A stretch of 64,000 nt of DNA. It comes from Escherichia phage Baret. The translations under genes and the position numbers were made by a program. The notes beneath the pieces were generated by a model. It ran no database searches. It was not told the DNA's origin and worked only from the letters and a program-made list of their open reading frames with translations. The stretch is from sequence record OR896834.1. One strand, 5' to 3'. Shown one piece after another: positions 6,757 through 40,483 of this stretch; the first letter of the stretch is position 1; each line of letters opens with the position of its first letter.

Positions 6757-7524
6757 TTATTCAGCAGCCGCAGCTTTTGCATCCAGTTTAGCACGCTTAG
6801 CGGCACCATCATAGTCCTTAGCAACCAGACCACGACGAGACAACATAGATTTAACACCACGCTCAGACTTACCAGTTTTCTCAGCGATCTCAGCAACGGT
6901 CATGTTAACCAGATCCAGACCTTCTAGCAGATCTTCACGAGTTTTAGCACTTGAAGTTTCCTGTACCGGCATAGCAGCGATACGACCTTCACGAAGCAGG
7001 CTCAGAGCTTTACCACGGATCTGCTTGATATTACGACCGAAGTGAGCAGCGATAGCTTCAATAGTAGCTCCAGCAACAACCTGATTAACAAAATCGGTTT
7101 CTTCATCAGGAGTGAAGGAACGAACAGCAGCAGCTTTTTCAGTTGGTTTAACAGAGGCGGTCATTTCCAGACTCAGGATCTTACCCTGTACCTGCTTAGC
7201 ACCAAATTGACCACCAGCTACAGCAGCAGCGATTTCAGCATAAGTATACTGACCAGCATGAGCGTTCAGGAAATCAACCAGTTCAGCTTCCTGCTCAGGA
7301 GTCCATGGGGATTTCTGTACTTCGTTAGCTTTCTGTACTTCAAAACCTTCTTTACGCAGTTTAGAGCCAACAGAGCGAGCAGTAACATCTTTGCCAGTTT
7401 CAGCAGCCAGTTCAGCAGCAATAGCAGCTACTTGTTCTTGAGAGATTACAGAAACACCCAGAGCGGTGGCTTTTGCTTTCAGAGACTCGGTTACACCTTC
7501 TACGTTCCAGTTCAGTTTAGACAT
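6757..7524 (-). CDS. Ala-rich putative dsDNA-binding protein (possibly T5 D5-like)
   Basis: 255 aa, Ala/Gly/Lys rich, repeated helix-turn-helix-like segments; GC-rich codon usage unlike neighbours; position between ligase and helicase. Confidence 0.35.
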   Translation of the reverse strand: MSKLNWNVEGVTESLKAKATALGVSVISQEQVAAIAAELAAETGKDVTARSVGSKLRKEGFEVQKANEVQKSPWTPEQEAELVDFLNAHAGQYTYAEIAAAVAGGQFGAKQVQGKILSLEMTASVKPTEKAAAVRSFTPDEETDFVNQVVAGATIEAIAAHFGRNIKQIRGKALSLLREGRIAAMPVQETSSAKTREDLLEGLDLVNMTVAEIAEKTGKSERGVKSMLSRRGLVAKDYDGAAKRAKLDAKAAAAE

Positions 7525-8290
7525 TATTATTTTTCTCCAATAGTTCTTTAATCGACAGGATTTCTATCCCATTCGTTTCGGCTTTCTTATAAGATGAGGA
7601 AGAACGCTTCGATTCATCCTCACAGATTAGGTATTTGACGTCTTTGGTAACGGATTTCTTAACCGTGTATCCTAGACCTTCTAAATAGTTTGTTGCATCC
7701 GTTCGGTTTGCAAAGTCTTGCAAAGATCCGGTAATACATACCGCGATTCCATTTGGCTGGGCAACTAAATCATCAGTAACGACGGTTTTAGCTTTAGCAC
7801 CAGTTGAGAATTTCCACGGTAATTCGATAACATCCTTGCCTTGTGGGGAATTTAGCCAGGCTTTATAGTTTTCTCCAGCCTTGCCGTCAGCCTTCACATC
7901 GTGAAAGCCAGTGCAATTTTGGGATAATTTCTTTGCTGCAACCTCTCCAATTAGAGGGATTCCTAAAGAACCGAGAACTGAACCAAAGTCAATGTCTCCG
8001 CGAACTTTAGTATTTAATTCGCTAATTAACTTAGCGGCAACCTTGCTACCCACGGCTCTAACCAAATCTTCTTCGGTTAGGTAAAATAGTTCTGAAATCT
8101 TCGTCAGCTCCAGCTTCTCAATAGTTTTCGGGCCAAAGCCCTTTAACTTCATTTTTGTACAGAAGTTCTCAATTAACTTACTTGATTGCGCTGGACAGTT
8201 GGACTTATTCCGACAGAATAATTGTCCGTTGACAAGATCTAGCTTAGAACCACAAGAGGGACATTGTGTTGGAATTTCGATTTTCATCAA
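7517..8290 (-). CDS. NAD-dependent DNA ligase, C-terminal half (Zn finger, HhH, BRCT)
   Basis: CPSCGSKL...CRNKSNC zinc finger; BRCT-like CITGSL...YLICED; separate ORF from the adenylation half. Confidence 0.8.
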   Translation of the reverse strand: MMKIEIPTQCPSCGSKLDLVNGQLFCRNKSNCPAQSSKLIENFCTKMKLKGFGPKTIEKLELTKISELFYLTEEDLVRAVGSKVAAKLISELNTKVRGDIDFGSVLGSLGIPLIGEVAAKKLSQNCTGFHDVKADGKAGENYKAWLNSPQGKDVIELPWKFSTGAKAKTVVTDDLVAQPNGIAVCITGSLQDFANRTDATNYLEGLGYTVKKSVTKDVKYLICEDESKRSSSSYKKAETNGIEILSIKELLEKNNNV

Positions 8291-8317
8291 ATTTCTTCCT
8301 TATCAATTTATATAAAT

Positions 8318-8346
8318 ATTATAGCAAGTATTTAAGCATTTAGCAA
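8318..8346 (-). promoter_or_regulatory. sigma70 promoter (TTGCTA-17-TATAAT) for ligase C-terminal gene
   Basis: Minus strand reads ttgcta...17 nt...tataat followed by atttatataaattgataagg and ATG. Confidence 0.7.
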
Positions 8347-8489
8347 CTACAATTTTAACTAACTTTGCTTACCCTCGCCATAACTTTCTATCCCTCAACT
8401 GAATGATAATAGTATATACCTAAGCGGCGAAAATGTCAATAACCACTTTATAATTCCGATATGGTAGATGGGTAGCAAAGGGTTATGTA

Positions 8490-9461
8490 TTAATCATATA
8501 CTCGCTCTACTATGCACGGGATTACACCACCAGCACGAATCACTCGAATCTGGCAACCGATCTCTAGATCAAGAGAGTTAATATAATCAACGTTATTAAG
8601 AGTCGCTTTAACAATTGTAGCATCATCAATAATTACCGGTTCGAAATAACCAACTGGAGTTACTTTACCAGAGGCCCCTACCTGCCACTCAACTTTAGTA
8701 AGAGTAGTAATCTCACCTTCTTCATCCTCTTTAATAGCGAATGCTCCACGAGGGAATTTATTAGTCCAGCCTTCTCGGAAGAATTTGTTGTTGTCATTAA
8801 TACGAACAACTTTACCATCCGTTGGAATCCACTTAAAGAAGGAACGCACATTAACAACTGTTAAGAAATCTTCATTCTCTAGCCAAAGCATATCTTTTAA
8901 ATACGTTTCTGTAATACCTACAGATTCAGCAGAACACTGGATACCATATGCAACGAAGATTAAACCACCTTCCCCTATACGTTGTACGAAATCATCGCTA
9001 TCTTTGAGGTTAATAGCACCAGAGGCAAAGTTACGTTTATTTTCTACTTCTTTTGTAATTAGAACTTCACCAGTGATTTGAGTAGGTACTTTTTGGGAAA
9101 TCTTTTGAGGGATGTTCAGCAATCTTACGTTGCTTGTGACATCATTCCCTAGAATACCATTACCACGAGTTAGTGCTTGAACAAATTCGCCATTAATATA
9201 TAACAGAGAAATCGCACAACCATCTAACTTATCAGTTTCTACCTGACCTAATGGGTTAAACGGAGGTTTATCTCCACGATTATAATAAACTTTCTGTAAA
9301 GAATACATACGATACAGATGTGGAATATCGCCCTTAGGCCCGATCTCTTCTTCTAACGGAAATCTTTTAATCAGACGATCATATTCTTCGTCAGAGATTA
9401 AAGACATTCCCTGGTAATATGCTTCTTGGCAACGTTTAATAAAGTCTTTTACATTAGTCAT
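8490..9461 (-). CDS. NAD-dependent DNA ligase, N-terminal adenylation + OB-fold half
   Basis: KxDG adenylation motif (ETDKLDGCAIS); domain order matches LigA N-terminus. Confidence 0.8.
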   Translation of the reverse strand: MTNVKDFIKRCQEAYYQGMSLISDEEYDRLIKRFPLEEEIGPKGDIPHLYRMYSLQKVYYNRGDKPPFNPLGQVETDKLDGCAISLLYINGEFVQALTRGNGILGNDVTSNVRLLNIPQKISQKVPTQITGEVLITKEVENKRNFASGAINLKDSDDFVQRIGEGGLIFVAYGIQCSAESVGITETYLKDMLWLENEDFLTVVNVRSFFKWIPTDGKVVRINDNNKFFREGWTNKFPRGAFAIKEDEEGEITTLTKVEWQVGASGKVTPVGYFEPVIIDDATIVKATLNNVDYINSLDLEIGCQIRVIRAGGVIPCIVERVYD

Positions 9462-9492
9462 TTATTTGTATCTCTCATTAATTTATATAAAT

Positions 9493-15292: not shown

Positions 15293-15321
15293 ATTATATC
15301 AAGATTTTGGGCATCCTGCAA
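15293..15321 (-). promoter_or_regulatory. sigma70 promoter (TTGCAG-17-TATAAT)
   Basis: Minus strand acttgcaggatgcccaaaatcttgatataatatttatattgaattgagag. Confidence 0.6.
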
Positions 15322-15363
15322 GTAAAATTTTCCGGATGGTGCTATCATTGGTCTTGAGTACGG

Positions 15364-15390
15364 ATAAAACCGAGCCAAAATGACTCGGTT
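15364..15390 (-). terminator. Rho-independent terminator
   Basis: CCGAG...CTCGG hairpin followed by TTTTAT on minus strand. Confidence 0.5.
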
Positions 15391-15397
15391 ATGTGGA

Positions 15398-15595
15398 TTA
15401 GACGCTTAAAATACTTCTAATCTCTTCTATATACTTACCTACTTTTTTAGCATCTACTTTACTTAGTTTTCCTATATCAAAATCAGGATCAGTAAACATT
15501 CTAGCTATCTCTATCTCTAGAGACTTACTAATTTTCCCGGTAGTATTCCACTTAGAAATCTTACCTTTTATTTTCCAAAATTCCTTATTCATCAT
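15398..15595 (-). CDS. hypothetical protein (65 aa)
   Basis: Track ORF. Confidence 0.4.
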   Translation of the reverse strand: MMNKEFWKIKGKISKWNTTGKISKSLEIEIARMFTDPDFDIGKLSKVDAKKVGKYIEEIRSILSV

Positions 15596-15977
15596 TTAGG
15601 CCTGGAACATAAATCCCAACACGGTTTAATTGTTCTTTAGCTTCTTTGAGAATATCTGGAGTGTACTCCCAAATATCATCTTCTACCTGTAAAAGATGGG
15701 GCGAACAACCGTCATCAGGCACACGACATATGGCCAAACCACGTGGATGGAATATAGAGAAGTTTAGGGCAACAATTAAACCCATAGCAGACAATTCATT
15801 CCAATCCAATTCCCATTCCCTAGCGTAGCCTGATAGGAAAACACCAACACAGGGATCATCTATTTGCTGCTCTGGAAAAGTGAAGGAGGCTTGTCTTACC
15901 CCCAACCAACGTTGTAGCAGCTTCTCAGCACGCTTCACCAAACTAGGATCAATCTGACGCCAATATACTTGTTCCAT
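15585..15977 (-). CDS. hypothetical protein, tandem paralogue A
   Basis: Shares W-x-ELD-x-MGL-x-ALN...PGL pattern with adjacent ORF 15987-16415. Confidence 0.55.
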   Translation of the reverse strand: MEQVYWRQIDPSLVKRAEKLLQRWLGVRQASFTFPEQQIDDPCVGVFLSGYAREWELDWNELSAMGLIVALNFSIFHPRGLAICRVPDDGCSPHLLQVEDDIWEYTPDILKEAKEQLNRVGIYVPGLNDE

Positions 15978-15986
15978 TCTGCCTCC

Positions 15987-16415
15987 TTAAGCAGTTAAAC
16001 CTGGGATCATATACCCGAAATGGCGAAGTTTCTGAATCCCCTCATTCACTTCTTCCGGTGAGTAAGACCAACCATAACGTTCATTAACCTGAAAACCAGG
16101 AGATTCACTAGTTTTATAGTTAACAACTAGGCGATGCTTAGCAGGCATAAACAGCTTATAGTTTAACGCAAAAACTAAGCCCATTTCGTCTAACTCTTTC
16201 CAGCCCACAATCTCTTCAAGACCATCCTCTACCTGCACAATTAAACCAATACAGGGGGCCTCATCAATATCATCCTTAAAAGCAAAGGAGATTTCGTTAT
16301 TCTCACACCATATTTTCAAAGAGTTAATAGCCTCATTATACAGGCTAGCTGGGAGAGTACGCCAAAAGTTAACCAAAATTGGGTTAGCTTCTTTAGAGAA
16401 TACATTATTGAACAT
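15987..16415 (-). CDS. hypothetical protein, tandem paralogue B
   Basis: GWKELDEMGLVFALN...GYMIPGL aligns with the neighbour's WNELSAMGLIVALN...GIYVPGL. Confidence 0.55.
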   Translation of the reverse strand: MFNNVFSKEANPILVNFWRTLPASLYNEAINSLKIWCENNEISFAFKDDIDEAPCIGLIVQVEDGLEEIVGWKELDEMGLVFALNYKLFMPAKHRLVVNYKTSESPGFQVNERYGWSYSPEEVNEGIQKLRHFGYMIPGLTA

Positions 16416-16417
16416 AT

Positions 16418-16924
16418 TTACACCTTAAATTGTTGTAAGGATTTACACATTTCAATATCTGGGCTAAATTCTAGCATATAGCTAACAGCTTTTAAATCTT
16501 GAAGATTTATCCCAGTCCTACCGTTGACTATAACCGTTGGATACTGATACATCATAGCACCAGCATCATCAAGCACACACCAATGTTTGAGCTTATGCTT
16601 TTCAACGAAACGGAGAACAGAATTACCTCTAGATAGCCCACCCCCAGTAAAATCAGTTGTACCAAGAAAACGATCGATAAGACCTAATCCGGTCATAATC
16701 TGAACGTTCTCCATCTCATTCCTGACAGAGAACCATGAGGATACTCCAACAATCATTATCGGAGAAGGACGAATAAAATCCTGAAAAGCCTTGAGAAGCG
16801 GTTTGAAAACCCAGTCACTTCCAAAGAAAATCTTTTCATTATCAGGTGCATGATGATGGGAGATGCTCGAATTGAGCACCCCATCAATGTCTAGAAAAAT
16901 AATTGGAGTATTACTTATTTCCAT
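16418..16924 (-). CDS. HAD-superfamily phosphatase
   Basis: Motif I IIFLDIDGVLN (DxDG); later VLDDAG. Confidence 0.6.
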   Translation of the reverse strand: MEISNTPIIFLDIDGVLNSSISHHHAPDNEKIFFGSDWVFKPLLKAFQDFIRPSPIMIVGVSSWFSVRNEMENVQIMTGLGLIDRFLGTTDFTGGGLSRGNSVLRFVEKHKLKHWCVLDDAGAMMYQYPTVIVNGRTGINLQDLKAVSYMLEFSPDIEMCKSLQQFKV

Positions 16925-17093
16925 TTTTGTTCCTTTCTAAGAACGTATCATACTCAACCGTATCAACATATATAACACCATAGTCATCAGATTTATAGTC
17001 CATTTCCCACAGCTCACAACGATAGCACCAACTACCGTCCGCCCATACAAATATATCATCAGGGTGTGTATACACAGATTTAATTATGGACAT
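16911..17093 (-). CDS. hypothetical protein (60 aa)
   Basis: Track ORF, overlaps neighbours. Confidence 0.35.
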   Translation of the reverse strand: MSIIKSVYTHPDDIFVWADGSWCYRCELWEMDYKSDDYGVIYVDTVEYDTFLERNKNGNK

Positions 17094-17938
17094 ATTTGTT
17101 TCCCCGGCACATAAGGTCTACCCTCTAAATGGGCTTCTACACGAGCGATAAAATCAGGGTCATTGAAAGCATCTACCGCACCTTTACTCCAGTAAGAGAT
17201 ACCACGTTCTTCCAGCTGGTACATCTCACTACGAGTCATACCTTGATAGCCAGGTTCCGCTGCGAGGGCACTATCATAGTAGTTAACAACCATAAGTTTC
17301 GCAGCAGTCAAATTAAGAACAGGAAATAATTCCCAGTAGAAGTTAATTACTTGGTTAGAGCAACCAACCACAATGATCATATCTTGACTGGTAATACCAT
17401 CAAAAATATTGTACATTTCTGCATACGCTGGAGCATGCTCCCCAAAGAAGATTACATTAGGTTTAACCCATTTATAATCATCTGGATCAATAGAAGTGTA
17501 CCCTACATCAATAATCCGTTTATTGCTACTATTGTAGCTATCAGCTACAACAACCTCTTTTAAATATCCGTGAATGTGCAGAATGTCACTATGTGGAACG
17601 CCAGCACGCTCAATAAGGTCATCAACGTTGGTAGTCAAGTTTACTACCTGACCTGGATATTGTTTATACCATTCACCAATACGCAAATGTGCAAGATTGG
17701 GTTCAACAGTTTTTAGCTCTTCACGACGTTTGTTGTAAAACATATGGGTTTTATGGTAAAAATTACCACGAAAGGCATGAATATTACATACTTCTTCTAG
17801 ATCATAATCATCCCACAGTGCTTTACCACTAGCAGTATCAGTACGAAAAGCTCGTACACCACTTTCAACACTCAAACCCGCACCGCTAATAATAATTAAT
17901 CTACGCATTTTCCACCTGTTCTCTGAAGTTTTGCCCAA
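17084..17938 (-). CDS. Sir2-like NAD-dependent deacylase/ADP-ribosyltransferase family protein
   Basis: GAGLSVESGVRAFR, TTNVDDL and HIHG resemble sirtuin GAGIS-ESG-FR, TQNID-L and H-G motifs; no zinc-ribbon cysteines. Confidence 0.55.
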   Translation of the reverse strand: MGKTSENRWKMRRLIIISGAGLSVESGVRAFRTDTASGKALWDDYDLEEVCNIHAFRGNFYHKTHMFYNKRREELKTVEPNLAHLRIGEWYKQYPGQVVNLTTNVDDLIERAGVPHSDILHIHGYLKEVVVADSYNSSNKRIIDVGYTSIDPDDYKWVKPNVIFFGEHAPAYAEMYNIFDGITSQDMIIVVGCSNQVINFYWELFPVLNLTAAKLMVVNYYDSALAAEPGYQGMTRSEMYQLEERGISYWSKGAVDAFNDPDFIARVEAHLEGRPYVPGKQICP

Positions 17939-18122
17939 TACTGTCTAATAGCTCAGCTAATTCTTTATTGCCTTTCTCCATTAAGGTATTAGCAATAACT
18001 TCTAGCATATTAGCGCAGGATTCAACACCATCCTTATAGCCAGTTTCCCAATACTGCATTAATGCGTTTTCCAAAGCGGCATTTAAACCCTTATCTGGTA
18101 GCATCGGCTTCGAGAATGCCAT
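17901..18122 (-). CDS. hypothetical protein (73 aa)
   Basis: Track ORF. Confidence 0.4.
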   Translation of the reverse strand: MAFSKPMLPDKGLNAALENALMQYWETGYKDGVESCANMLEVIANTLMEKGNKELAELLDSIGQNFREQVENA

Positions 18123-18315
18123 AAAGTTTCTCCTCTAGTTCCATAACACGATTTTCATAAGAAGCACGCAACTTTTCAATTGCCAGCGCACGCACTGTAA
18201 CCTCATTAGAATTAATAGCTAACTGGGCTAGGTCTTCTGTTTCCATACGTCCGTTGTAAATTAAGCGATATTTAAGGTGTTTCACATTCTTAGTCATTAT
18301 TAAACTCCACTGCAA
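18091..18315 (-). CDS. hypothetical protein (74 aa)
   Basis: Track ORF. Confidence 0.4.
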   Translation of the reverse strand: MQWSLIMTKNVKHLKYRLIYNGRMETEDLAQLAINSNEVTVRALAIEKLRASYENRVMELEEKLYGILEADATR

Positions 18316-18670
18316 CTGTTTCTAGGTCTTCATCAGAAAAACTAGAGTATACATCTTTAAGATATTGTTTAATACTCCAAGTAATATCTTCGTACCCATG
18401 GGGGCTACGTTGGTACACTTTTAGCACTCTATTATACACAAATTCAAGATTACATTTTACTTCATCTCTGTCTTCATCAAACAAGCAATATGGATTATAA
18501 GGTGATACATCTAGATTTGTTCCCACCCAATCGCCAATAATTGATGAATATCCAATACCCTCTAGATGGGAATAATCTCCAGTAGATGCAAAAATAGCTT
18601 CTCTAAGATCGTCTACGCCAAGATGGAAACTACCACATGTAGACTCAACTATATAGGGCTTTAATTCCAT
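18290..18670 (-). CDS. hypothetical protein (126 aa)
   Basis: Track ORF; promoter upstream. Confidence 0.45.
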   Translation of the reverse strand: MELKPYIVESTCGSFHLGVDDLREAIFASTGDYSHLEGIGYSSIIGDWVGTNLDVSPYNPYCLFDEDRDEVKCNLEFVYNRVLKVYQRSPHGYEDITWSIKQYLKDVYSSFSDEDLETVAVEFNND

Positions 18671-18727: not shown

Positions 18728-18769
18728 ATAAAATAAAAGCCAGGTCGACTAGCAACCCGGCTGATTAGC

Positions 18770-20673: not shown

Positions 20674-20702
20674 ATTATAACTCATTCGAGGGCGGATGTC
20701 AA
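20674..20702 (-). promoter_or_regulatory. sigma70 promoter (TTGACA-17-TATAAT) for nrdD
   Basis: Minus strand ttgacatccgccctcgaatgagttataat. Confidence 0.65.
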
Positions 20703-20753: not shown

Positions 20754-20782
20754 TTGCCAATCTCTATTAAAAATTGTATAAT
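20754..20782 (+). promoter_or_regulatory. sigma70 promoter (TTGCCA-17-TATAAT)
   Basis: ttgccaatctctattaaaaattgtataat. Confidence 0.6.
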
Positions 20783-33299: not shown

Positions 33300-34090
33300 A
33301 GCGAGCCGATTACGCTGAACTTGTCTTAATGTAAGATGCGTCAAGCACTAAGATTCGTTGAATAGAGTCGGTGGGTTAGTTGTAAAACTAGTACACAGGG
33401 GGCGGCAATCCCGGTTAGTGGCTAGAACGTGTAAAATGAGGCGTCTGAAACCTCTCCCCTAAACTCTTCTCTAATTTATAAATAGTGGGGTGTGGAAATC
33501 ACTTATGTAGTAACACTGCCGTCCTAGTATAATTGGTATTATCAAGCCGTAACTGGTGGAAGATGTAGGTTCGAATCCTACGGTCGGTAAGAACTGGATA
33601 ACTGATGCTTTTAACGTAAAAGCTTCCGAGGTTAGTTGCGCACTGCCTAAACCACGCGGTAGTTGGTTCCAGACTAACCAACCAGTCTGCTGAATAGTTT
33701 TATTACGATTTAACTATGCCCAGGCTAAAGAAGAACTTTAGAAGGTATTCTAGGGTAGTGAAGTTCTTTCTCCATATCGGAGTAGTTTTTCAAGCTATCC
33801 ACAAAGTGGGAAATGCTGACATGAGAGATGTCACTAATGGTGCACAATAGCACAGGTAATTCGCGATAACTCCTGTTGAGTAGCAGCAAAAGGTGGGAAG
33901 TCATGACCCCAAGCCTAACCGAGTCCTCAATATACCGCAGGACATAACCACTAAGTCACCCTGACTTAAACTGGAAAATAATAGACGTTACCGTATTTTG
34001 TCTTGAAATACTTAATGAGTGAGACTTATGACTCTCCCGGTATCGTCTGTATTTTTAAGAGTTTTTACGAGAGTTCTTAAAAATACTTAA
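33300..34090 (+). other. ORF-free structured region (candidate noncoding RNAs) upstream of tRNA-Arg
   Basis: No ORF of 60 aa or more; stacked hairpins (GTTGGTT/AACCAAC, AAGAACTT/AAGTTCTT, TTTTTAAGA/TCTTAAAAA); DnaA-box-like CTATCCACA. Confidence 0.3.
33518..33589 (+). pseudogene. tRNA-like element (degenerate)
   Basis: Canonical T-arm GTAGG-TTCGAAT-CCTAC and 6/7 acceptor pairing, but no convincing anticodon arm. Confidence 0.25.
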
Positions 34091-34091
34091 A

Positions 34092-34166
34092 CGGGGTGTA
34101 GTCTAAGGGATAGGCAGGAGTCTTCTAAATTCCTTTATGCAGGTTCGAATCCTGTCACCTCGGCCA
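34092..34166 (+). tRNA. tRNA-Arg (anticodon UCU), CCA encoded
   Basis: Acceptor CGGGGTG/CACCTCG, D-stem GTCT/AGGC, anticodon loop CTTCTAA, T-loop TTCGAAT, 3' GCCA. Confidence 0.8.
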
Positions 34167-34200
34167 ATTTTATTAACTGTAACTAAAACAAAGGAAATAT

Positions 34201-35148
34201 ATGTTTAATACTAAAAATATGAAAGAACTAACTTCTGAGCAGAAAGTAATTCGTACTATTAAACGTTGGGGGATTGGTGCTGTAGTTGGTTTAGCAGGTT
34301 TAATCCTAGCTTTTAATTCATATACTATTGTTTCTGATGGTACGGTTAAAACCCAAACATTTCTTGGTAAAGTAGATCCTAACCCAGTATTACCTGGTTT
34401 CCATCCTGTAAACCCATTTGCATCTTTCGATACTTTTAGTACAAAAGATATTGCTGTAAAATTAGATAAACTTCAGGTTCCTAGCCAGGATAAGTTTAAA
34501 TCCACTGTTGACCTGACTGTTATGTTGCAGTTTGATGGTTCTAAGGCACCGATTAACCGTATTAATGCAGGTACTCAGGATCAAGCATTAGACAAATATG
34601 TAACTGAAAAATTACTGTCTACTATTCGTGAGTTTGGTAAGTCTGTACCTAAAGCACAAGATTTATTTGATGCTAAAATTCAGGCTCAATTGCAAACTGC
34701 AATTCAACAGGAAGTTGAAGAGTATGCACGCCCATATGGCTACACAGTTAAGCAGGTGTTTCTTCAGGATATTACTTTGCCACCAGTAATCATGGAACAG
34801 GTACAGAATACCAAAGTTCGTGAAGAGCAAGTTAATGCTGCAAAAGCTGAACTGGCTCGCGTTGAACAAGAAGCTCAGCAGAAAGTTAAACAAGCAGAAG
34901 CAGACCGTGAAGCTCGTAATAACCAAGCTATTGCTAACGAACGCGACGCAGATGCTAAACTGTATGCAGCTAAGAAAGAAGCTGAAGCTAACGCCGCGCT
35001 GCAACGTACCATTACTCCTGAGATGATTCGCTGGAAGCAACTAGAAGTTGAAATGATTCGTGCTCAGAAGTATCAAGGTGGTGTACCGCAGACTGTGGTT
35101 GGCACTGGTTACGATGGCCAGATGATTATGGATATGCGTAATAAGTAA
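34201..35148 (+). CDS. SPFH/band-7 domain membrane protein (HflC/prohibitin-like)
   Basis: N-terminal TM helix IGAVVGLAGLILAF; SPFH-like core; C-terminal Ala/Glu/Gln-rich coiled coil. Confidence 0.55.
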   Translation: MFNTKNMKELTSEQKVIRTIKRWGIGAVVGLAGLILAFNSYTIVSDGTVKTQTFLGKVDPNPVLPGFHPVNPFASFDTFSTKDIAVKLDKLQVPSQDKFKSTVDLTVMLQFDGSKAPINRINAGTQDQALDKYVTEKLLSTIREFGKSVPKAQDLFDAKIQAQLQTAIQQEVEEYARPYGYTVKQVFLQDITLPPVIMEQVQNTKVREEQVNAAKAELARVEQEAQQKVKQAEADREARNNQAIANERDADAKLYAAKKEAEANAALQRTITPEMIRWKQLEVEMIRAQKYQGGVPQTVVGTGYDGQMIMDMRNK

Positions 35149-35171
35149 TATCCACGCGTAATATTCGAAGT

Positions 35172-35206
35172 AAGCCCTGTGTTTCCTGGAGAGCGCAGGG
35201 CTTTTC
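35172..35206 (+). terminator. Rho-independent terminator
   Basis: AGCCCTG...CAGGGCT hairpin followed by TTTTCTG. Confidence 0.6.
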
Positions 35207-35245
35207 TGTATAATGTATTTATACAACTAACTAGGGGATCAAATA

Positions 35246-35764
35246 ATGACTGTTGATGAACTAACAGAACATCTCTTATCTAGAGGGTTTGATACAGATA
35301 AATATCACTGCTGGCTAAGCCCAGAAGGATGGCTAACAGTCCCATTGTATGACTTCTCTGGGATGTTGAGAGGCTATCAGACTTATAATCCTTCTGCTCC
35401 AAAAGGTCATGGTAAATGCCCCTTTGAAGCTAGATATTTTACTTATTCTACTACACAGTGTGTATGGGGACTAGAAACTCTCAATGGAGACGAAAAAGTA
35501 GTATTGATTGCTGAATCTGTATTTAAGGCAGTTGCGTTACATAACGCTGGTTATCCAGCCCTGGCAATGTTGGGTTCTTCCCCCGGAAAAGCGTTGTTAA
35601 AGCAATTGAAATTACTACCTTTTAAATTGGTAGCTGTTGGGGATAATGATCCTGCTGGTGAAAAATTTGCTAGACAATTAAATGGATTTGTTTCTCCTGT
35701 AGATGTGGATGAGATGTCTACCGAAAACTTGAAAAATTTTCTTGCTATGAAGCTAAATTTCTAA
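35246..35764 (+). CDS. TOPRIM-domain protein (172 aa)
   Basis: VVLIAESVFKAV (E) ... LVAVGDNDPAGEKFA (DxD) fits TOPRIM; promoter TTGCTA embedded in its 3' end. Confidence 0.5.
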   Translation: MTVDELTEHLLSRGFDTDKYHCWLSPEGWLTVPLYDFSGMLRGYQTYNPSAPKGHGKCPFEARYFTYSTTQCVWGLETLNGDEKVVLIAESVFKAVALHNAGYPALAMLGSSPGKALLKQLKLLPFKLVAVGDNDPAGEKFARQLNGFVSPVDVDEMSTENLKNFLAMKLNF

Positions 35765-35770
35765 TATAAT
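35742..35770 (+). promoter_or_regulatory. sigma70 promoter (TTGCTA-17-TATAAT) for tRNA transcription unit
   Basis: ttgctatgaagctaaatttctaatataat. Confidence 0.6.
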
Positions 35771-35784
35771 ATATTTATAAATTC

Positions 35785-35873
35785 GGAAGAATAGCATAAC
35801 GGTATTGCAGCAGATTGCTAATCTGTCGGTTTGAAATATAGCCTTGTGGGTTCGATTCCCACTTCTTCCGCCA
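35785..35873 (+). tRNA. tRNA-Ser (anticodon GCU), type II, CCA encoded
   Basis: Acceptor GGAAGAA/TTCTTCC, anticodon arm GCAGA-TTGCTAA-TCTGT, long variable arm, T-arm GTGGG-TTCGATT-CCCAC. Confidence 0.8.
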
Positions 35874-35879
35874 AATTCT

Positions 35880-35957
35880 GGTTCTCAAGCTCATATGGTA
35901 TGAGCACCCGGCTCATAACCGGAAGGTACGTAGGTTCGAATCCTCGGGGAGCCACCA
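35880..35957 (+). tRNA. tRNA with CAU anticodon (Met/Ile2-type), CCA encoded
   Basis: Acceptor GGTTCTC/GGGAGCC, D-arm GCTC...GAGC, anticodon loop CTCATAA; T-stem has mismatches. Confidence 0.5.
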
Positions 35958-35977
35958 ACTTAATTAGGGGATTACAA

Positions 35978-36166
35978 GTGGAATTATACATAGTTTATGT
36001 TGTGTTTATTCAAGATAGAGAATACCCTGATGAATATAAAAAAGGATATAGGTTAGCCAGAGCTACTTCTGAAGCCCAAGCTATGGATAAAGTGGCAGAT
36101 TATATGCTTACAGTAGAAAACGTACACTACATCGACTACCTTGAAGCCTCAAAAGTAATTGACTAA
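35978..36166 (+). CDS. hypothetical protein (62 aa, GTG start)
   Basis: Track ORF trimmed to exclude tRNAs; GTG after AGGGGA. Confidence 0.35.
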   Translation: MELYIVYVVFIQDREYPDEYKKGYRLARATSEAQAMDKVADYMLTVENVHYIDYLEASKVID

Positions 36167-36173
36167 ACTACAC

Positions 36174-36250
36174 GGGGGTGTAATCGAATTGGCATAGGTA
36201 CTGGACTTAAAATTCAGGTTTTGTGGGTTCGAATCCCACCACCCCTACCA
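36174..36250 (+). tRNA. tRNA with UAA anticodon (Leu by anticodon), type I length, CCA encoded
   Basis: Acceptor GGGGGTG/CACCCCT, anticodon arm CTGGA-CTTAAAA-TTCAG, T-arm GTGGG-TTCGAAT-CCCAC; D region GAATTGGCATA lacks a clear stem. Confidence 0.55.
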
Positions 36251-36265
36251 AATTAAGGAAATAAG

Positions 36266-36433
36266 ATGTATAGACACCCACCTCCGCCAACACGTCGTTC
36301 TAGAGAAGTTATCCTCATGGAATTGACTAAAAACTTCAAGGCAACTCTTGAGGATAGAGATTTAGGCACGGATGAAGACATTGATTTTATTTGTAGACTA
36401 TTAAAGATGAAACTGGAGAAACAACATGGCTAA
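36266..36433 (+). CDS. hypothetical micro-protein (55 aa), not in ORF track
   Basis: ATG after AAGGAA RBS; overlaps next ORF start. Confidence 0.35.
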   Translation: MYRHPPPPTRRSREVILMELTKNFKATLEDRDLGTDEDIDFICRLLKMKLEKQHG

Positions 36434-36632
36434 TCCTGAAATTACCATGCAACGATTCATGGCTAAAGGCATGATAGCTGAGGCAGGCATTGAACAAGAA
36501 GTAAAAAGTTATTACGAACAGATTAAGGGTATTGTAGACTCGGCTAAAAACACCGGAGAAAAAGAACATGGTGCGGCAATTATGGCTATAACTCTTATTA
36601 GTCTAGACTTGGCCGAAGAATCTGGAGTTTAG
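36426..36632 (+). CDS. hypothetical protein (68 aa)
   Basis: Track ORF, GGAG RBS. Confidence 0.45.
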   Translation: MANPEITMQRFMAKGMIAEAGIEQEVKSYYEQIKGIVDSAKNTGEKEHGAAIMAITLISLDLAEESGV

Positions 36633-36662
36633 CTCCTCCAAACAGAATTTTTAAAAATGTAC

Positions 36663-36692
36663 TTGCCTTTTGCCTTAAATTTCTGATATAAT
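36663..36692 (+). promoter_or_regulatory. sigma70 promoter (TTGCCT-18-TATAAT)
   Basis: acttgccttttgccttaaatttctgatataat. Confidence 0.6.
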
Positions 36693-36722
36693 AATTATAT
36701 AAATTGATGGAGGAGTTAACGA

Positions 36723-36998
36723 ATGCAAAATCGTGTTGTAGCAACTGGTATTGAAAGTGCAATCTGTAAATCCTGGGAAGGCTGGGAAGGTGAGATTGAA
36801 TGGCTTTATTTCTATGATGTAGAACTTCTACCGGAAGTTAAAGCTAAATGTATTGAAGCTGGCATGGCTCCAGATGCAAAAGCTGATATTGATATTTTAA
36901 TGTCTGAACTTAAAGGTCGTGTAGTTACCGTTAGTAATGAGGGCGAAGAAGTTTTCGAACTTCCATTTTCCTTAACTGTCACTCCTAAGTTCGACTAA
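36723..36998 (+). CDS. hypothetical protein (91 aa)
   Basis: Track ORF, GGAGGAG RBS. Confidence 0.5.
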   Translation: MQNRVVATGIESAICKSWEGWEGEIEWLYFYDVELLPEVKAKCIEAGMAPDAKADIDILMSELKGRVVTVSNEGEEVFELPFSLTVTPKFD

Positions 36999-37006
36999 CT
37001 AATACA

Positions 37007-37045
37007 GCACTGAGCAAGTTCTTTAAAATTTGACTTGCTCAGTGC
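37007..37045. repeat. 12-bp perfect inverted repeat enclosing the -35 of the next promoter
   Basis: GCACTGAGCAAG (37007-18) and CTTGCTCAGTGC (37034-45). Confidence 0.6.
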
Positions 37046-37063
37046 CTTAAAACTTGATATAAT
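37035..37063 (+). promoter_or_regulatory. sigma70 promoter (TTGCTC-17-TATAAT) for tRNA unit
   Basis: ttgctcagtgccttaaaacttgatataat. Confidence 0.6.
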
Positions 37064-37079
37064 AGTTATCTAATTCGGA

Positions 37080-37129
37080 AACATATTTAAAAGTGTTTAA
37101 ACTAGTATTTGAATACTTTTAAATATGTT
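37080..37129. repeat. 15-bp perfect inverted repeat (leader hairpin) abutting tRNA-Tyr 5' end
   Basis: AACATATTTAAAAGT (37080-94) and ACTTTTAAATATGTT (37115-29), 20-nt spacer containing GTTTAAAC. Confidence 0.7.
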
Positions 37130-37217
37130 GGATTAGTATCGTAGAGGTAGCGAAGCAGACTGTAAATCTGCCGACTCGGAAGGGTCTCGGGTGGTTCGAC
37201 TCCATCATCCAACACCA
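37127..37217 (+). tRNA. tRNA-Tyr (anticodon GUA), type II, CCA encoded
   Basis: Acceptor GTTGGAT/ATCCAAC, anticodon arm GCAGA-CTGTAAA-TCTGC, long variable arm, T-arm GGTGG-TTCGACT-CCATC. Confidence 0.8.
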
Positions 37218-37224
37218 AATTTAA

Positions 37225-37301
37225 GTCCTGTTAGACAAACTGGTAAAGTCACTACCCTTTCAAGGTAGGGTTTGCGGGTTCGATCCCCGCACAGGACGCC
37301 A
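37225..37301 (+). tRNA. tRNA-Glu (anticodon UUC), CCA encoded
   Basis: Acceptor GTCCTGT/ACAGGAC, anticodon arm CTACC-CTTTCAA-GGTAG, T-arm GCGGG-TTCGATC-CCCGC. Confidence 0.8.
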
Positions 37302-37310
37302 ATTAATAAT

Positions 37311-37381
37311 TGGGGTACGCATAGGTTGCAAATGGGCCTCCAAAACCCATGAAAAGGTTTCGAATACCTTTACCCCTGCCA
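37311..37381 (+). tRNA. tRNA, probable Trp (anticodon CCA), CCA encoded
   Basis: T-arm AAGGT-TTCGAAT-ACCTT, acceptor TGGGGTA/TACCCCT (1:72 mismatch), anticodon loop CTCCAAA with 4-bp stem. Confidence 0.45.
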
Positions 37382-37387
37382 AAATTT

Positions 37388-37462
37388 GCACCTTTAGCTG
37401 AGATGGATTAGCGCTTGCCTGAAGAGCTTGAGAGGTTCGTTCGATACGAACAGGGTGCACCA
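37388..37462 (+). tRNA. tRNA, possibly Phe (anticodon GAA), CCA encoded
   Basis: Acceptor GCACCTT/AGGGTGC, D-arm GCT...AGC, T-arm GTTCG-TTCGATA-CGAAC; loop CTGAAGA but anticodon stem has U-U mismatches. Confidence 0.45.
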
Positions 37463-37478
37463 AATTGAAGGAGATGCT

Positions 37479-37749
37479 GATGCATCCTGAAAACTTCTTT
37501 ATTTACTGCGCGGATAAGTTGCTGAAACGTAGAATTAACAAAGTCTATCATTATCGTGTTAGTCAACAGCCTTATGTATACGCTTTTGACGGTGATCACA
37601 TTTCATTAGAACAATTATCTTGTGATTACATGATATTGAAGAACTTTGACGAGACGAAGATCTCAAGCGTTCACAATCGACAGAATCCATTAACGTGGAA
37701 ATATAAGAAAAAGAAAGGCATCAAATTCTTAAAAAATGTAGTTGCTTAG
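37479..37749 (+). CDS. hypothetical protein (90 aa)
   Basis: ATG 6 nt after AAGGAG; track start adjusted. Confidence 0.45.
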
Positions 37750-37770
37750 TTTCCAAAAGTTCTGTATAAT
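37742..37770 (+). promoter_or_regulatory. sigma70 promoter (TTGCTT-17-TATAAT)
   Basis: ttgcttagtttccaaaagttctgtataat. Confidence 0.6.
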
Positions 37771-37799
37771 AAATACATAAATTGAACTGGAGAAGCAAC

Positions 37800-38018
37800 A
37801 TGACAGAACAAGAATTGAATGAACGTAAGCTAGTAATGCTTCGCTTACTAAATATTTTCTCTGGTATGGACGGTGGTGGTGATTTCTTAAGACTTAAGGT
37901 ATTTACAGAAACTGCCGAAGGTGATGCAATCTCTAGAGTTATTAGGAACATGGGAAGCCTGCTAGATGTGGCTGGAGTAGCTACTCAATACACCTTAGAT
38001 AATCCTACTGGAGAATAA
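37800..38018 (+). CDS. hypothetical protein (72 aa)
   Basis: ATG after GGAGAAG RBS. Confidence 0.45.
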   Translation: MTEQELNERKLVMLRLLNIFSGMDGGGDFLRLKVFTETAEGDAISRVIRNMGSLLDVAGVATQYTLDNPTGE

Positions 38019-38210
38019 ATGAGAAGATTAGTTAGATTTAAGTGTTGTAGTTCTGAACATATTTTCACACATCTTCGTGAATTTAAAATGTGTGATTGTG
38101 GTAAATCAGGCTATGACTCTGGAAATGGGTTCTACACCCGTACTCTAGGGAACTTCAATGATTTAGAATTTGAAGATCTCGAAAAACAAGATAAACCGAC
38201 CGTTGGCTGA
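38019..38210 (+). CDS. hypothetical Cys-rich micro-protein (63 aa)
   Basis: C-C...C-x-C pattern; start overlaps upstream stop. Confidence 0.4.
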   Translation: MRRLVRFKCCSSEHIFTHLREFKMCDCGKSGYDSGNGFYTRTLGNFNDLEFEDLEKQDKPTVG

Positions 38211-38272
38211 ATGGCTTAGGCGAAGGATTGCAAATCCTTTTTATGTGAGTTCAAATCTCATGCGGTCGTCCA
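38197..38272 (+). tRNA. tRNA-Cys (anticodon GCA), CCA encoded
   Basis: Acceptor CGACCGT/GCGGTCG, anticodon arm AAGGA-TTGCAAA-TCCTT, T-arm GTGAG-TTCAAAT-CTCAT. Confidence 0.75.
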
Positions 38273-38293
38273 AATTACTAAAGGAAAGAAGTA

Positions 38294-38812
38294 GTGCATA
38301 CAAAAGTTTTTGATAGTTTGGTAAAGAAAGGCGTTGTTACTAACGAGCCCTTCTATATAACCGCAGAACTAATCCAGAGATTTATGGAAGAATATATAAA
38401 TCTTTCAGGAACCAATGGTAATACCAAAAAGAATACAAATACTATGTATTCGAGAAAACTTGCTGCACTTTCCTTTATAAAGTTTAAGCAGGAAAATAAA
38501 CTTCCTATTTCTGAAGGTTTTGTATACTGTATTAGTAATCCTGCATGGAAAAATCAGTATAAAATAGGTATGAGTCAAAATCCAAAAGAGAGATTAGCTC
38601 AATATCAGACTTATTCCCCTTATAGGGATTATAAGTTAGAGCATTGGTCTTTTTGGTTTGACAAACGAAAAGGTGAAAAACTAATTCACCAGTATTTCAA
38701 AGATTTAAAAGAACATGAGTGGTTTAGTATAAATTCTAGGGATCTTAGTAAATATCTAGAACGTATTAACTCTAGTTCTGACTTATATGGTTCCTTAGCT
38801 CTAATTGGTTAG
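38294..38812 (+). CDS. T5orf172/GIY-YIG-like domain protein (172 aa, GTG start)
   Basis: GFVYCISNPAWKNQYKIGMSQNPKERLAQYQT matches the T5orf172 (MUG113) signature; 3' end overlaps tRNA-Asn by ~24 nt. Confidence 0.55.
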   Translation: MHTKVFDSLVKKGVVTNEPFYITAELIQRFMEEYINLSGTNGNTKKNTNTMYSRKLAALSFIKFKQENKLPISEGFVYCISNPAWKNQYKIGMSQNPKERLAQYQTYSPYRDYKLEHWSFWFDKRKGEKLIHQYFKDLKEHEWFSINSRDLSKYLERINSSSDLYGSLALIG

Positions 38813-38866
38813 AGCGGCATCTTGTTAAGTTGAGGGTTGCTGGTTCGAATCCAACAGGAACCGCCA
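38789..38866 (+). tRNA. tRNA-Asn (anticodon GUU), CCA encoded
   Basis: Acceptor GGTTCCT/AGGAACC, D-arm GCTC...GAGC, anticodon loop TTGTTAA (stem with mismatches), T-loop TTCGAAT. Confidence 0.6.
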
Positions 38867-38968
38867 AATTCTGTGTAGAGTTAAGTAAACCGGTAGCCAA
38901 CCAGCTATCATTGCTGACATCGAATTCAGCCATAGATACCATTTTCGTTAATAACTGAGGAAACAAGC

Positions 38969-39154
38969 ATGTCCAAGAATGTAATTGCGCAGCTAGAAGT
39001 TCATCGTGATAGCACTATCAACAATATTGAAGTTGAGAAGAAATACATAGAAGAACTTAAACATGATATACTGGTAAGTCTCAACCGTCTTAATGTACGA
39101 AAAGAGTTTCTTAAAGAACTTAATGCAGCTATTGAAAAACTCAAAGCTGAGTAA
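38969..39154 (+). CDS. hypothetical coiled-coil micro-protein (61 aa)
   Basis: Track ORF. Confidence 0.4.
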   Translation: MSKNVIAQLEVHRDSTINNIEVEKKYIEELKHDILVSLNRLNVRKEFLKELNAAIEKLKAE

Positions 39155-39163
39155 ATGAATTAT

Positions 39164-39240
39164 GCGACCGGGGCTGGCTTGGTAATGGTACTCCCCTGTC
39201 ACGGGAGAGAATGTGGGTTCAAATCCCATCGGTCGCGCCA
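39164..39240 (+). tRNA. tRNA-Asp (anticodon GUC), CCA encoded
   Basis: Acceptor GCGACCG/CGGTCGC, anticodon arm CTCCC-CTGTCAC-GGGAG, T-arm GTGGG-TTCAAAT-CCCAT. Confidence 0.8.
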
Positions 39241-39257
39241 AATAAGGTAGGTTAGCT

Positions 39258-39416
39258 ATGGAACGTAGGGAGTTTACTCCAGAAGAGATAGAGCAGATAA
39301 AAGAATCTGCTATGAAAAATGCTAGAATATCTCTGTCACTGGAAGGTATCATTATTAGTGATGTAAACTTTGAAAAAATCAAAGCCATAGCTGATGAACT
39401 GGAAAAAGTAATTTAA
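39258..39416 (+). CDS. VbhA/FicA-antitoxin-like micro-protein (52 aa), not in ORF track
   Basis: AAGGTAGG RBS; sequence NARISLSLEG contains the (S/T)xxxE(G/N) inhibitory motif of Fic antitoxins. Confidence 0.45.
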   Translation: MERREFTPEEIEQIKESAMKNARISLSLEGIIISDVNFEKIKAIADELEKVI

Positions 39417-39417
39417 T

Positions 39418-39493
39418 ACATCCATAGCTCAATGGTTAGAGCTACCGCCTCTTAAGCGGAGGGTTCTAGGTTCAAGTCCTAGTGGGTGTACCA
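39418..39493 (+). tRNA. tRNA-Lys (anticodon CUU), CCA encoded
   Basis: Acceptor ACATCCA/TGGGTGT, D-arm GCTC...GAGC, anticodon loop CTCTTAA, T-arm CTAGG-TTCAAGT-CCTAG. Confidence 0.75.
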
Positions 39494-39519
39494 AATTAAA
39501 CTAGCACGAGAAATATGCT

Positions 39520-39867: not shown

Positions 39868-39869
39868 CA

Positions 39870-40250: not shown

Positions 40251-40259
40251 AAAATTCAT

Positions 40260-40288: not shown

Positions 40289-40320
40289 ATATTTTATAAA
40301 GTGAAGAGAAGGAAAGCAAA

Positions 40321-40479: not shown

Positions 40480-40483
40480 TATT

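What the first reader, a model, noticed from the sequence alone, without database searches (positions are those of the whole stretch)
15585..17938. Sir2-like NAD enzyme adjacent to a HAD phosphatase and a tandem pair of paralogous unknowns
A Sir2-family protein lacking the usual zinc-ribbon cysteines sits beside a HAD phosphatase and two tandemly duplicated genes sharing a W-x-ELD-x-MGL-x-ALN...PGL core. Sir2 and HAD are NAD and phospho-nucleotide handling folds, so this could be an NAD salvage or anti-NADase counter-defence module rather than a deacetylase.
Basis: inference. Interest (0 to 1): 0.55.

Follow-up and report, generated by a model that had tools for sequence, protein, structure and literature searches.

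The report
T5 phage sirtuin–phosphatase early operon
This is the known, conserved early operon of T5-like phages that carries a zinc-less but probably active sirtuin, a small HAD phosphatase and two copies of an unknown domain (DUF7415); published comparative genomics predicts an NAD-dependent RNA-end repair role, and nobody has tested it.

Summary
On the minus strand, packed head to tail, lie a Sir2-family gene (17084-17938), a 60-aa ORF, a HAD phosphatase (16418-16924) and two paralogues (15987-16415 and 15585-15977; 30% identity, E=1e-18).

The window is a Tequintavirus, 95-98% identical in DNA to known T5-like phages. The genes correspond to T5.102 and T5.104-T5.107.

The sirtuin keeps every NAD-binding and catalytic residue in 35 of 35 clade members. 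It also keeps the class-III YxxR motif. It has no zinc-binding cysteines.

The HAD belongs to Pfam HAD_SAK_2, keeps all four HAD motifs and models as a capless phosphatase. The paralogues are Pfam DUF7415 and match no solved fold.

The sirtuin plus "Swiss-army-knife" HAD neighbourhood in T5-like phages was already described by Iyer et al. 2022. They predicted Tpt1/KptA-like removal of RNA 2'-phosphates.

My context survey supports an RNA-repair link: related phages carry a contiguous RNA ligase, cREC, kinase and Sir2 gene string. It also shows recurrent proximity to NAD-rebuilding genes, and T5 itself has no detectable Rnl1-type RNA ligase.

The finding is already known, and its function remains untested.

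The parts
17084..17938 (-). Zinc-less Sir2-family (sirtuin) gene, homologue of T5.102. The probable true start is the ATG at 17908.
   Evidence: Pfam SIR2 E=1e-24. The best solved relatives are E. coli CobB 6rxj/1s5p at E~1e-17, with GAGxS, TxNxD and HG aligned. In 35/35 clade members G19, A20, G21, S23, F31, R32, Y68, R71, N104, D106, H123, F164, F165, E167, G192, S194 and N219 are invariant, and the ribbon segment holds 0-1 Cys.
16911..17093 (-). 60-aa ORF (p60, homologue of T5.104, phrog_5116) that overlaps both neighbours. It may be a small partner of Sir2.
   Evidence: PHROG 5116 E=6e-30. It follows Sir2 in T5-like and Sugarlandvirus-like loci and in L009, with a shared DIF..DGxWCYR motif.
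16418..16924 (-). Capless HAD-superfamily phosphatase of the HAD_SAK_2 family, homologue of T5.105.
15987..16415 (-). DUF7415 paralogue A, homologue of T5.106.
15585..15977 (-). DUF7415 paralogue B, homologue of T5.107.
   Evidence: Pfam PF24187 E=9e-32. 30% identity to paralogue A, E=1e-18. The A-then-B order is kept in Sugarlandvirus-like loci at 33-37% identity.
15398..15595 (-). 65-aa ORF (phrog_29527), the last gene of the packed block. Not detected at the corresponding place in T5.
   Evidence: PHROG E=6.5e-40. It overlaps the end of paralogue B by 11 nt. It gave no hit in the T5 locus L002.
17901..18670 (-). Three small upstream ORFs of the same co-directional block: 18290-18670 (homologue of T5.100), 18091-18315 and 17901-18122. 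Functions unknown.
   Evidence: They are overlapping or abutting ORFs with PHROGs 11748, 5236 and 5827. T5 annotates a promoter before T5.100 and a terminator after T5.107.
18738..18762 (-). Terminator-like hairpin after nrdD, marking the upstream border of the block.
   Evidence: 10-bp stem with 6 GC pairs and a T-run. T5 annotates a terminator at the equivalent place.

Best explanation
This is the conserved early accessory operon of T5-like phages. It encodes an NAD+-consuming end-processing module for nucleic acid, most likely RNA.

Shown: the genes and their families, the intact catalytic residues, the missing zinc site, the synteny, and the gene contexts.

Inferred:
1. The zinc-less sirtuin derives from class III sirtuins. 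It binds NAD+ and lets an anionic oxygen of its substrate attack the ribose C1''. The invariant Tyr68/Arg71 pair holds that anion.
2. Following Iyer et al. 2022, the substrate would be an RNA 2'-phosphate left after cleavage by a metal-independent nuclease. [quoted passage not shown]
3. The capless HAD_SAK_2 phosphatase removes a terminal phosphate from the RNA end, or dephosphorylates the ADP-ribose phosphate by-product.
4. The 60-aa protein and the two DUF7415 proteins are lineage-specific accessory subunits, possibly for substrate recognition.
5. T5 has no ligase of its own, so any sealing would fall to a host enzyme such as RtcB.
For: - Catalytic competence. All NAD-pocket and catalytic residues of the sirtuin and all HAD motifs are invariant across homologues down to about 50% and 37% identity respectively.
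- Linkage survives rearrangement. T5-like loci read Sir2-p60-HAD-DUF7415-DUF7415, whereas L009 and L013 read HAD-x-Sir2.
- RNA-repair context for the same Sir2 clade (47-63% identity). In 11-13 of 59 IMG/VR loci and in Raoultella phage Ro1, Sir2 is the last gene of a contiguous, same-strand string: RNA_lig_T4_1, cREC (cyclic-phosphate-processing domain), AAA_33 kinase, SIR2. A Metallophos esterase lies upstream.
- More distant HAD relatives lie 2-3 kb from Rnl1/kinase/Metallophos clusters in L012, L036 and L043/L044.
- The HAD belongs to the Pfam family defined on RNA-repair proteins. It models as a capless HAD whose nearest solved relatives, MDP-1 and Scp1, have open active sites.
- The sirtuin is neither a CobB equivalog nor a defence-type NADase Sir2 (no PADLOC match).
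- The same neighbourhood and the same prediction are published (PMC9503650 section 3.7.3).
Against: - Everything rests on context; no activity has been measured.
- Neither the window nor the whole T5 genome has an Rnl1-type RNA ligase or a cREC by tblastn at E<=1. A kinase query (AAA33_L170) gave only a weak 45-residue match at the dNMP kinase gene (E 0.03-0.09). The T5 annotation lists no RNA ligase. A self-contained heal-and-seal pathway is therefore missing exactly where the HAD and DUF7415 genes occur.
- The sirtuin keeps the full protein-deacylase signature (FGE loop, YxxR), so ordinary lysine deacylation is not excluded.
- HAD sits next to NARP1 in one lineage. Sir2 lies near PnuC and NARP1 in others. 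Both point as well to small-molecule NAD/ADPR chemistry.
- Twelve of the 59 Sir2 loci have no recognisable partner.
- A natural Shivani-like variant lacks Sir2, p60 and the HAD N-terminus, so the module is dispensable at least in culture.
Confidence: 0.4

Rival explanations
1. The sirtuin is an ordinary NAD+-dependent protein lysine deacylase, like CobB or SIRT5 and possibly a desuccinylase. It would reset acylation of host or phage proteins early in infection. The HAD and DUF7415 genes would be neighbours with unrelated or only loosely related roles.
For: - The best solved and curated relatives are CobB, Sir2Af and SIRT5 deacylases.
- The catalytic His, the N/D pair, the FGE loop and the class-III Y-x-x-R motif are invariant. 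By established knowledge, that motif binds the carboxylate of succinyl-lysine in SIRT5 and CobB.
Against: - The zinc module is lost in the whole clade. By established knowledge, it shapes the peptide cleft and is needed by canonical sirtuins.
- Scores are far below the deacylase equivalog cutoffs.
- Linkage to HAD, p60 and DUF7415 survives gene-order rearrangement. In other phages the gene sits inside an RNA-ligase operon. A general protein deacylase would not explain either.
Confidence: 0.28
2. The module handles NAD+-derived small molecules and acts as a counter-defence. The sirtuin and the HAD would convert or detoxify ADP-ribose derivatives (phosphorylated or acylated ADPR, immune signals, NADP-derived species). 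Alternatively they would feed ADPR into NAD+ rebuilding.
For: - HAD homologues (37-43% identity) lie immediately upstream of the Adps-like and Namat-like NARP1 pair in three related myovirus contigs.
- Mydovirus-like Sir2 loci also carry NARP1 within 6 kb upstream and PnuC 2-3 kb downstream, and NADAR in Ro1.
- L133 has NARP1 next to Sir2 with no RNA ligase, and L135 has a NAMPT-like gene next to Sir2.
Against: - Sirtuin chemistry consumes NAD+.
- No NAD-synthesis gene is in this module, in the window or in T5.
- The HAD-NARP1 adjacency comes from one lineage, so it counts as one evolutionary event.
- The NAD islands of large myoviruses also hold the RNA-repair genes, so proximity does not discriminate.
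- The NARP1 paper describes no phosphatase partner.
Confidence: 0.2
3. The genes are functionally unrelated accessory genes. They sit together only because they were inherited together in the early region of Demerecviridae genomes.
For: - Most of the co-occurrence comes from one virus family.
- Sugarlandvirus-like phages keep Sir2 and DUF7415 without HAD.
- L009 and L013 keep HAD and Sir2 without DUF7415.
- Single-domain DUF7415 genes occur alone in T4-like phages.
Against: - HAD and Sir2 stay adjacent although their order is inverted between lineages.
- Reading frames overlap, which suggests translational coupling.
- p60 and DUF7415 follow Sir2 in lineages where Sir2 identity has fallen to about 49%.
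Confidence: 0.12

Closest known systems
Phage sirtuin plus 'Swiss-army-knife' HAD neighbourhood of T5-like phages (type 3 in Iyer, Burroughs, Anantharaman and Aravind 2022, Viruses 14:1977, PMC9503650 section 3.7.3; exemplar Escherichia phage SP15)
   Same: It is the same genes in the same virus group. SP15 proteins are among the closest homologues: P0004, and H119 at 96% HAD identity. This window is another copy of that published neighbourhood.
   Different: As far as the quoted text shows, the paper does not discuss the DUF7415 pair or the 60-aa ORF. It also does not note that T5-like phages lack an RNA ligase. Its function is a prediction only.
E. coli CobB and class III sirtuins (SIRT5-like NAD+-dependent protein deacylases)
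   Same: Same Rossmann fold. GAGxS, the N/D pair, the catalytic His, the FGE loop and the Y-x-x-R motif are all kept. CobB is the best solved match at E~1e-17.
   Different: There are no zinc-binding cysteines. The conserved QN(I/V)D motif, recalled from memory, reads TTNVD here. Scores are far below the CobB equivalog cutoffs. The gene context is phage-specific.
Tpt1/KptA RNA 2'-phosphotransferase (ART fold)
   Same: It is the proposed functional analogue. Both chemistries start with an oxygen nucleophile attacking NAD+ C1'', followed by attack of the ribose 2''-OH (PMC6097658 abstract for Tpt1; established sirtuin mechanism). Both occur beside RNA ligases in phages (PMC9503650).
   Different: The fold is unrelated and there is no sequence similarity: Pfam finds only SIR2. 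No such activity has been shown for any sirtuin.
T4 Pnkp plus Rnl1 heal-and-seal tRNA repair, and the Rnl1-cREC-kinase-Sir2 operons of Vequintavirinae
   Same: Both combine a HAD-type or other phosphoesterase with NAD- or ATP-dependent end processing. The same Sir2 clade closes the ligase operon in Vequintavirus and Mydovirus.
   Different: The T5-type module has no detectable kinase, cREC or ligase. It has DUF7415 and p60 instead.
Phage NAD+ reconstitution pathways NARP1 (Adps + Namat), NARP2 and NARP3 (NadR + PnuC; PMC13464706)
   Same: All are NAD-centred accessory genes in the early regions of the same phage groups. The HAD family neighbours NARP1 in one lineage.
   Different: None of the NARP genes searched for is present here. 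The sirtuin consumes NAD+ rather than making it.

Membership tests
Sir2/sirtuin superfamily (Pfam PF02146) | Profile score above the gathering threshold | tested here: met
   87.8 bits against a cutoff of 24, E=1.1e-24, covering profile positions 1-178 of 180.
Sir2/sirtuin superfamily | NAD-binding GAGxS, cofactor-loop F-R, the N and D of the (Q)NxD motif, and the catalytic His-Gly | tested here: met
   G19, A20, G21, S23, F31, R32, N104, D106, H123 and G124 are invariant in 35/35 homologues. They align to the CobB motifs.
Canonical sirtuin deacylases | Cys4 zinc ribbon in the small domain | tested here: not met
   The segment between H123 and K159 holds 0-1 Cys in all 35 sequences, and none in the window protein.
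Class III sirtuins (CobB/SIRT5) | Y-x-x-R motif that binds acidic acyl groups | tested here: met
   Y68 and R71 (YNKR) are invariant in 35/35 and align to YNAR of CobB.
CobB protein deacylase equivalogs (NCBIfam NF040867, NF001753 and others) | Score above the curated equivalog or subfamily cutoff | tested here: not met
   90.4 against 320 bits, and 101 against 243 bits.
Defence-system Sir2 NADases (ThsA, DSR, SIR2-HerA and others; PADLOC models) | Match to any defence Sir2 profile | tested here: not met
   No PADLOC family at E<=0.01.
Tpt1/KptA RNA 2'-phosphotransferase | ART-fold KptA domain | tested here: not met
   Pfam returns only SIR2 for this protein. Any likeness is functional analogy.
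Tpt1/KptA-like activity | NAD+-dependent removal of RNA 2'-phosphate | not testable with these tools
   This needs biochemistry. Only gene context supports it.
HAD superfamily, HAD_SAK_2 family (PF18143) | Profile score above threshold, plus motifs I (DxD), II (S/T), III (K/R) and IV (DD) | tested here: met
DUF7415 (PF24187) | Profile score above threshold | tested here: met
   120.8 and 109.5 bits against a cutoff of 27.
NARP1 / NARP3 NAD+ reconstitution pathways | Presence of Adps and Namat, or of PnuC (with NadR) | tested here: not met
   tblastn with Adps, Namat and PnuC queries finds nothing in the window or the full T5 genome at E<=1. NadR was not searched for directly.

The most novel reading that the evidence does not exclude
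A zinc-less sirtuin clade found across several tailed-phage lineages has left protein deacylation. It would use NAD+ on a phosphate-bearing substrate that is not a protein. That substrate could be RNA 2'-phosphate ends, making this the first non-ART Tpt1 analogue. It could instead be phosphorylated ADP-ribose metabolites, which would link it through the HAD_SAK_2 phosphatase to NARP1-type NAD+ rebuilding. The DUF7415 pair and the 60-aa protein would then be new specificity subunits.
Probability: 0.3. Interest if true: 0.7.

Novelty: already known. Interest (0 to 1): 0.3.

Why it matters
T5-like phages are model phages and are used in therapy, yet this early operon has no assigned function. If the sirtuin really removes RNA 2'-phosphates, it would be a new enzymatic solution to a known repair step and a new way for phages to resist RNA-cutting host defences. 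If it instead works on ADP-ribose metabolites, it would extend the growing list of NAD-centred counter-defences. Either answer can be tested with purified proteins and deletion phages. As a genome-scan finding, it rediscovers a published gene neighbourhood.

Tried and rejected
- phmmer of the HAD against PDB sequences found nothing even at E<=10.
- hhalign of the N-terminal against the C-terminal half of the DUF7415 proteins found no similarity. Pfam nevertheless reports two matched stretches per protein, so an internal repeat remains unproven.
- The search for related loci with the DUF7415 alignment returned only T5-like contigs. The first word-indexed DUF7415 search also gave only close relatives.
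- The PhageMaP paper's Sir2 mentions concern host Sir2-HerA, not the phage gene.
- The Burroughs and Aravind 2016 paper that defines the SAK HAD is not held.
- No paper mentions DUF7415, and I found no experimental paper on a T5-type phage sirtuin.
- I rejected the record annotations 'exonuclease' and 'tail tube protein' for the DUF7415 genes, and 'Sir2' for the HAD gene. No profile or fold evidence supports them.
- I rejected a defence-type NADase reading, because there is no PADLOC match.
Full report
**What is there**

The window is a T5-like phage. Bases 15300-18200 match 448 phage records, the best at 95-98% DNA identity (Salmonella phage LmqsSP1, E. coli phages AZ23 and HK6, phage NBSal005), all Tequintavirus-type genomes. 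The window is colinear with NBSal005 and T5.

The finding's genes lie on the minus strand in one tightly packed, co-directional block between nrdD and the origin-binding protein gene:
- three small ORFs (18670-17901);
- Sir2 (17938-17084);
- a 60-aa ORF (17093-16911);
- HAD (16924-16418);
- DUF7415-A (16415-15987);
- DUF7415-B (15977-15585);
- a 65-aa ORF (15595-15398).

Most neighbours overlap by 8-38 nt or are 2-9 nt apart. A terminator-like hairpin follows nrdD. T5's curated record places a promoter before T5.100 and a terminator after T5.107. The block is therefore very probably one early transcription unit. In T5 the genes are T5.102 (Sir2), T5.104, T5.105 (HAD, mislabelled Sir2), T5.106 and T5.107.

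**Checking the observation**

Every element is confirmed.
- The 284-aa protein matches Pfam SIR2 (E=1e-24). The 168-aa protein matches HAD_SAK_2 (E=7e-20). Both paralogues match DUF7415.
- The paralogues align at 30% identity over 124 residues, E=1e-18.
- The nearest solved relative of the Sir2 is E. coli CobB (E~1e-17). That alignment shows GAGLSVESG against GAGISAESG, TTNVDDL against TQNIDNL, HIHG against HMHG and FYNKRR against FYNARR. CobB's CxxxC...CHCC region has no cysteine counterpart in the phage protein.
- In 35 homologues of 55-85% identity, the NAD-pocket and catalytic positions are invariant: G19, A20, G21, S23, F31, R32, Y68, R71, N104, D106, H123, F164, F165, E167, G192, S194 and N219. 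The ribbon segment holds at most one Cys.

By sequence, then, the enzyme is catalytically competent and zinc-free.

**The other proteins**

A profile search of 1.84 billion cluster representatives found only 59 relatives.
- The roughly 65-residue C-terminal core occurs alone in T4-like phages.
- It also occurs fused to a thymidylate-kinase-like domain (P0063) and to a DUF3850/ASCH domain (P0061).
- A tandem DUF7415 pair also occurs on the short contig L006 (67% and 49% identity) and in Sugarlandvirus-like phages (33-37% identity, same A-then-B order). The duplication therefore predates the split of these lineages.

**What is already known**

Iyer, Burroughs, Anantharaman and Aravind (2022, PMC9503650 section 3.7.3) describe a distinct phage sirtuin clade in three neighbourhood types. 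The third is 'typified by Escherichia phage SP15', a T5-like phage. [quoted passage not shown]

They propose that the sirtuin acts like KptA/Tpt1 and removes RNA 2'-phosphates. The HAD would either prepare the RNA end or process the ADP-ribose cyclic phosphate product. I found no experimental test of this.

The proven NAD+ reconstitution system of T5-like phages, NARP3, is a different gene pair, NadR plus PnuC (PMC13464706).

**New context evidence**

I fetched 59 IMG/VR loci for the Sir2 clade and 62 for the HAD family. I scanned them locally with component queries and profiles.

| Group of Sir2 loci | Count | Content |
|---|---|---|
| T5-like | 28 | Sir2, HAD and DUF7415 (p60 in most; a single DUF7415 in L109) |
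| Sugarlandvirus-like, plus L129 | 4 | Sir2 and DUF7415, no HAD |
| Vequintavirus/Mydovirus-like | 11-13 | RNA-ligase string ending in Sir2 |
| L133, L134, L135 (one each) | 3 | NARP1 pair, a HAD relative, or a NAMPT-like gene near Sir2 |
| No recognisable partner | 12 | Sir2 alone |

- Two divergent T5-like contigs (L009, L013; not among the 59) have HAD upstream of Sir2 and lack DUF7415. The HAD-Sir2 adjacency thus survives a change of gene order, which argues for selection on the linkage.
- In the Vequintavirus/Mydovirus-like group, Sir2 is the last gene of a contiguous string: Metallophos ... RNA_lig_T4_1, cREC, AAA_33, SIR2. This is confirmed by Pfam for phage nom and Raoultella phage Ro1. 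It independently reproduces the published type-2 neighbourhood and is the strongest support for an RNA-repair role.
- Most of those same loci also carry PnuC 2-3 kb downstream. Several carry the NARP1 pair (Adps-like and Namat-like) within 6 kb upstream, and Ro1 also has NADAR.
- Locus L133 has NARP1 next to Sir2 without a ligase.
- In one lineage of about 150-kb myoviruses, the HAD family (37-43% identity) sits directly upstream of the NARP1 pair. Neither of the two papers I searched, the NARP1 preprint and the 2022 survey, mentions this adjacency.

**Weak points of the RNA-repair reading**

- tblastn with three Rnl1, two cREC, two kinase, two Metallophos, Adps, Namat, PnuC and NADAR queries against the window and the complete T5 genome found only the Metallophos esterase (T5.034 homologue, window 54868-55335, E=2e-5) and a weak P-loop match at the dNMP kinase.
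- The T5 annotation lists no RNA ligase. T5-like phages would have to rely on a host ligase, or the module does something else. Rnl2- and RtcB-type ligases were not searched for.
- A Shivani-like natural variant lacks Sir2, p60 and the first 63 HAD codons, so the module is dispensable at least in culture.

**Verdict**

The object is the known T5.100-T5.107 early operon, and the Sir2-HAD pairing with a functional prediction is already published. I rate the RNA-end-processing explanation at about 0.4, a plain protein deacylase at about 0.28, small-molecule NAD/ADPR counter-defence at about 0.2, and unrelated neighbours at about 0.12.

Novelty: already known. Interest is modest (0.3), because the biochemical question is open and directly testable.

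Noticed in passing
window 16418-16924 (HAD); phrog_18062: PHROG 18062 is labelled 'Sir2 (NAD-dependent deacetylase)' but matches the C-terminal half of the HAD protein at E=2e-57 and the true Sir2 only weakly (E=2e-6). This probably explains why many T5-like records, including RefSeq T5 (T5.105), annotate two 'Sir2' genes. It looks like a propagated mislabel.
   Followed up: partly
L010 7001-10217; L011 7001-10569; L012 7001-10519: In roughly 150-kb myoviruses such as Serratia phage ChuuTotoro, a HAD_SAK_2 homologue (37-43% identical to the window's HAD) lies directly upstream of the NARP1 pair (PRPP-synthetase-like Adps and NAPRTase-like Namat). The NARP1 preprint and the 2022 NAD survey do not mention this adjacency. 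It hints at an ADP-ribose-phosphate substrate for this phosphatase family.
   Followed up: partly
window 15585-16415; records: The DUF7415 genes are annotated in various records as 'exonuclease', 'Phage exonuclease (ACLAME 70)' or 'tail tube protein'. No profile or fold evidence supports any of these names.
   Followed up: yes
P0063 (L007 1230-2777) and P0061: The DUF7415 core domain occurs fused to a thymidylate-kinase-like P-loop domain, and to a DUF3850/ASCH (PUA-like) domain. This points weakly to nucleotide or nucleic-acid chemistry.
   Followed up: partly
L031 (IMG/VR 2706796320, Shivani-like); H140 KP143763.1: A natural T5-like variant lacks Sir2, the 60-aa ORF and the first 63 codons of HAD, but keeps both DUF7415 genes. 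The sirtuin is therefore dispensable at least under isolation conditions.
   Followed up: partly
window about 7520-9480 (by colinearity with NBSal005 gp063/gp064): The phage carries a split NAD+-dependent DNA ligase about 6 kb from the sirtuin operon. Its replication therefore depends on host NAD+, while it also encodes an NAD+-consuming sirtuin.
   Followed up: no
window 20674-20702 (- strand): A perfect sigma-70 consensus promoter (TTGACA, 17 nt spacer, TATAAT) lies just upstream of nrdD. A near-perfect divergent one lies at 20754-20782 (+ strand), ahead of phoH.
   Followed up: no
window 17908 vs 17938: The ORF list starts Sir2 at a TTG (17938). Homologues and a near-identical RefSeq record (NBSal005) start at the ATG ten codons downstream (17908), so the protein is probably 274 aa.
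   Followed up: partly
window about 33900-47000 and beyond (by colinearity with NBSal005): The large tRNA gene cluster typical of T5-like phages lies about 16 kb from the module. It is relevant background if the module repairs cleaved tRNAs. It was not scanned here.
   Followed up: no
L169 1940-2215 (Escherichia phage ECO340P2): In phi92-like myoviruses, the Sir2 homologue has no RNA-repair or HAD partner. It lies about 4 kb from an Acb2/Tad1-hairpin (anti-CBASS/anti-Thoeris sponge-like) gene, in an apparent anti-defence region.
   Followed up: no
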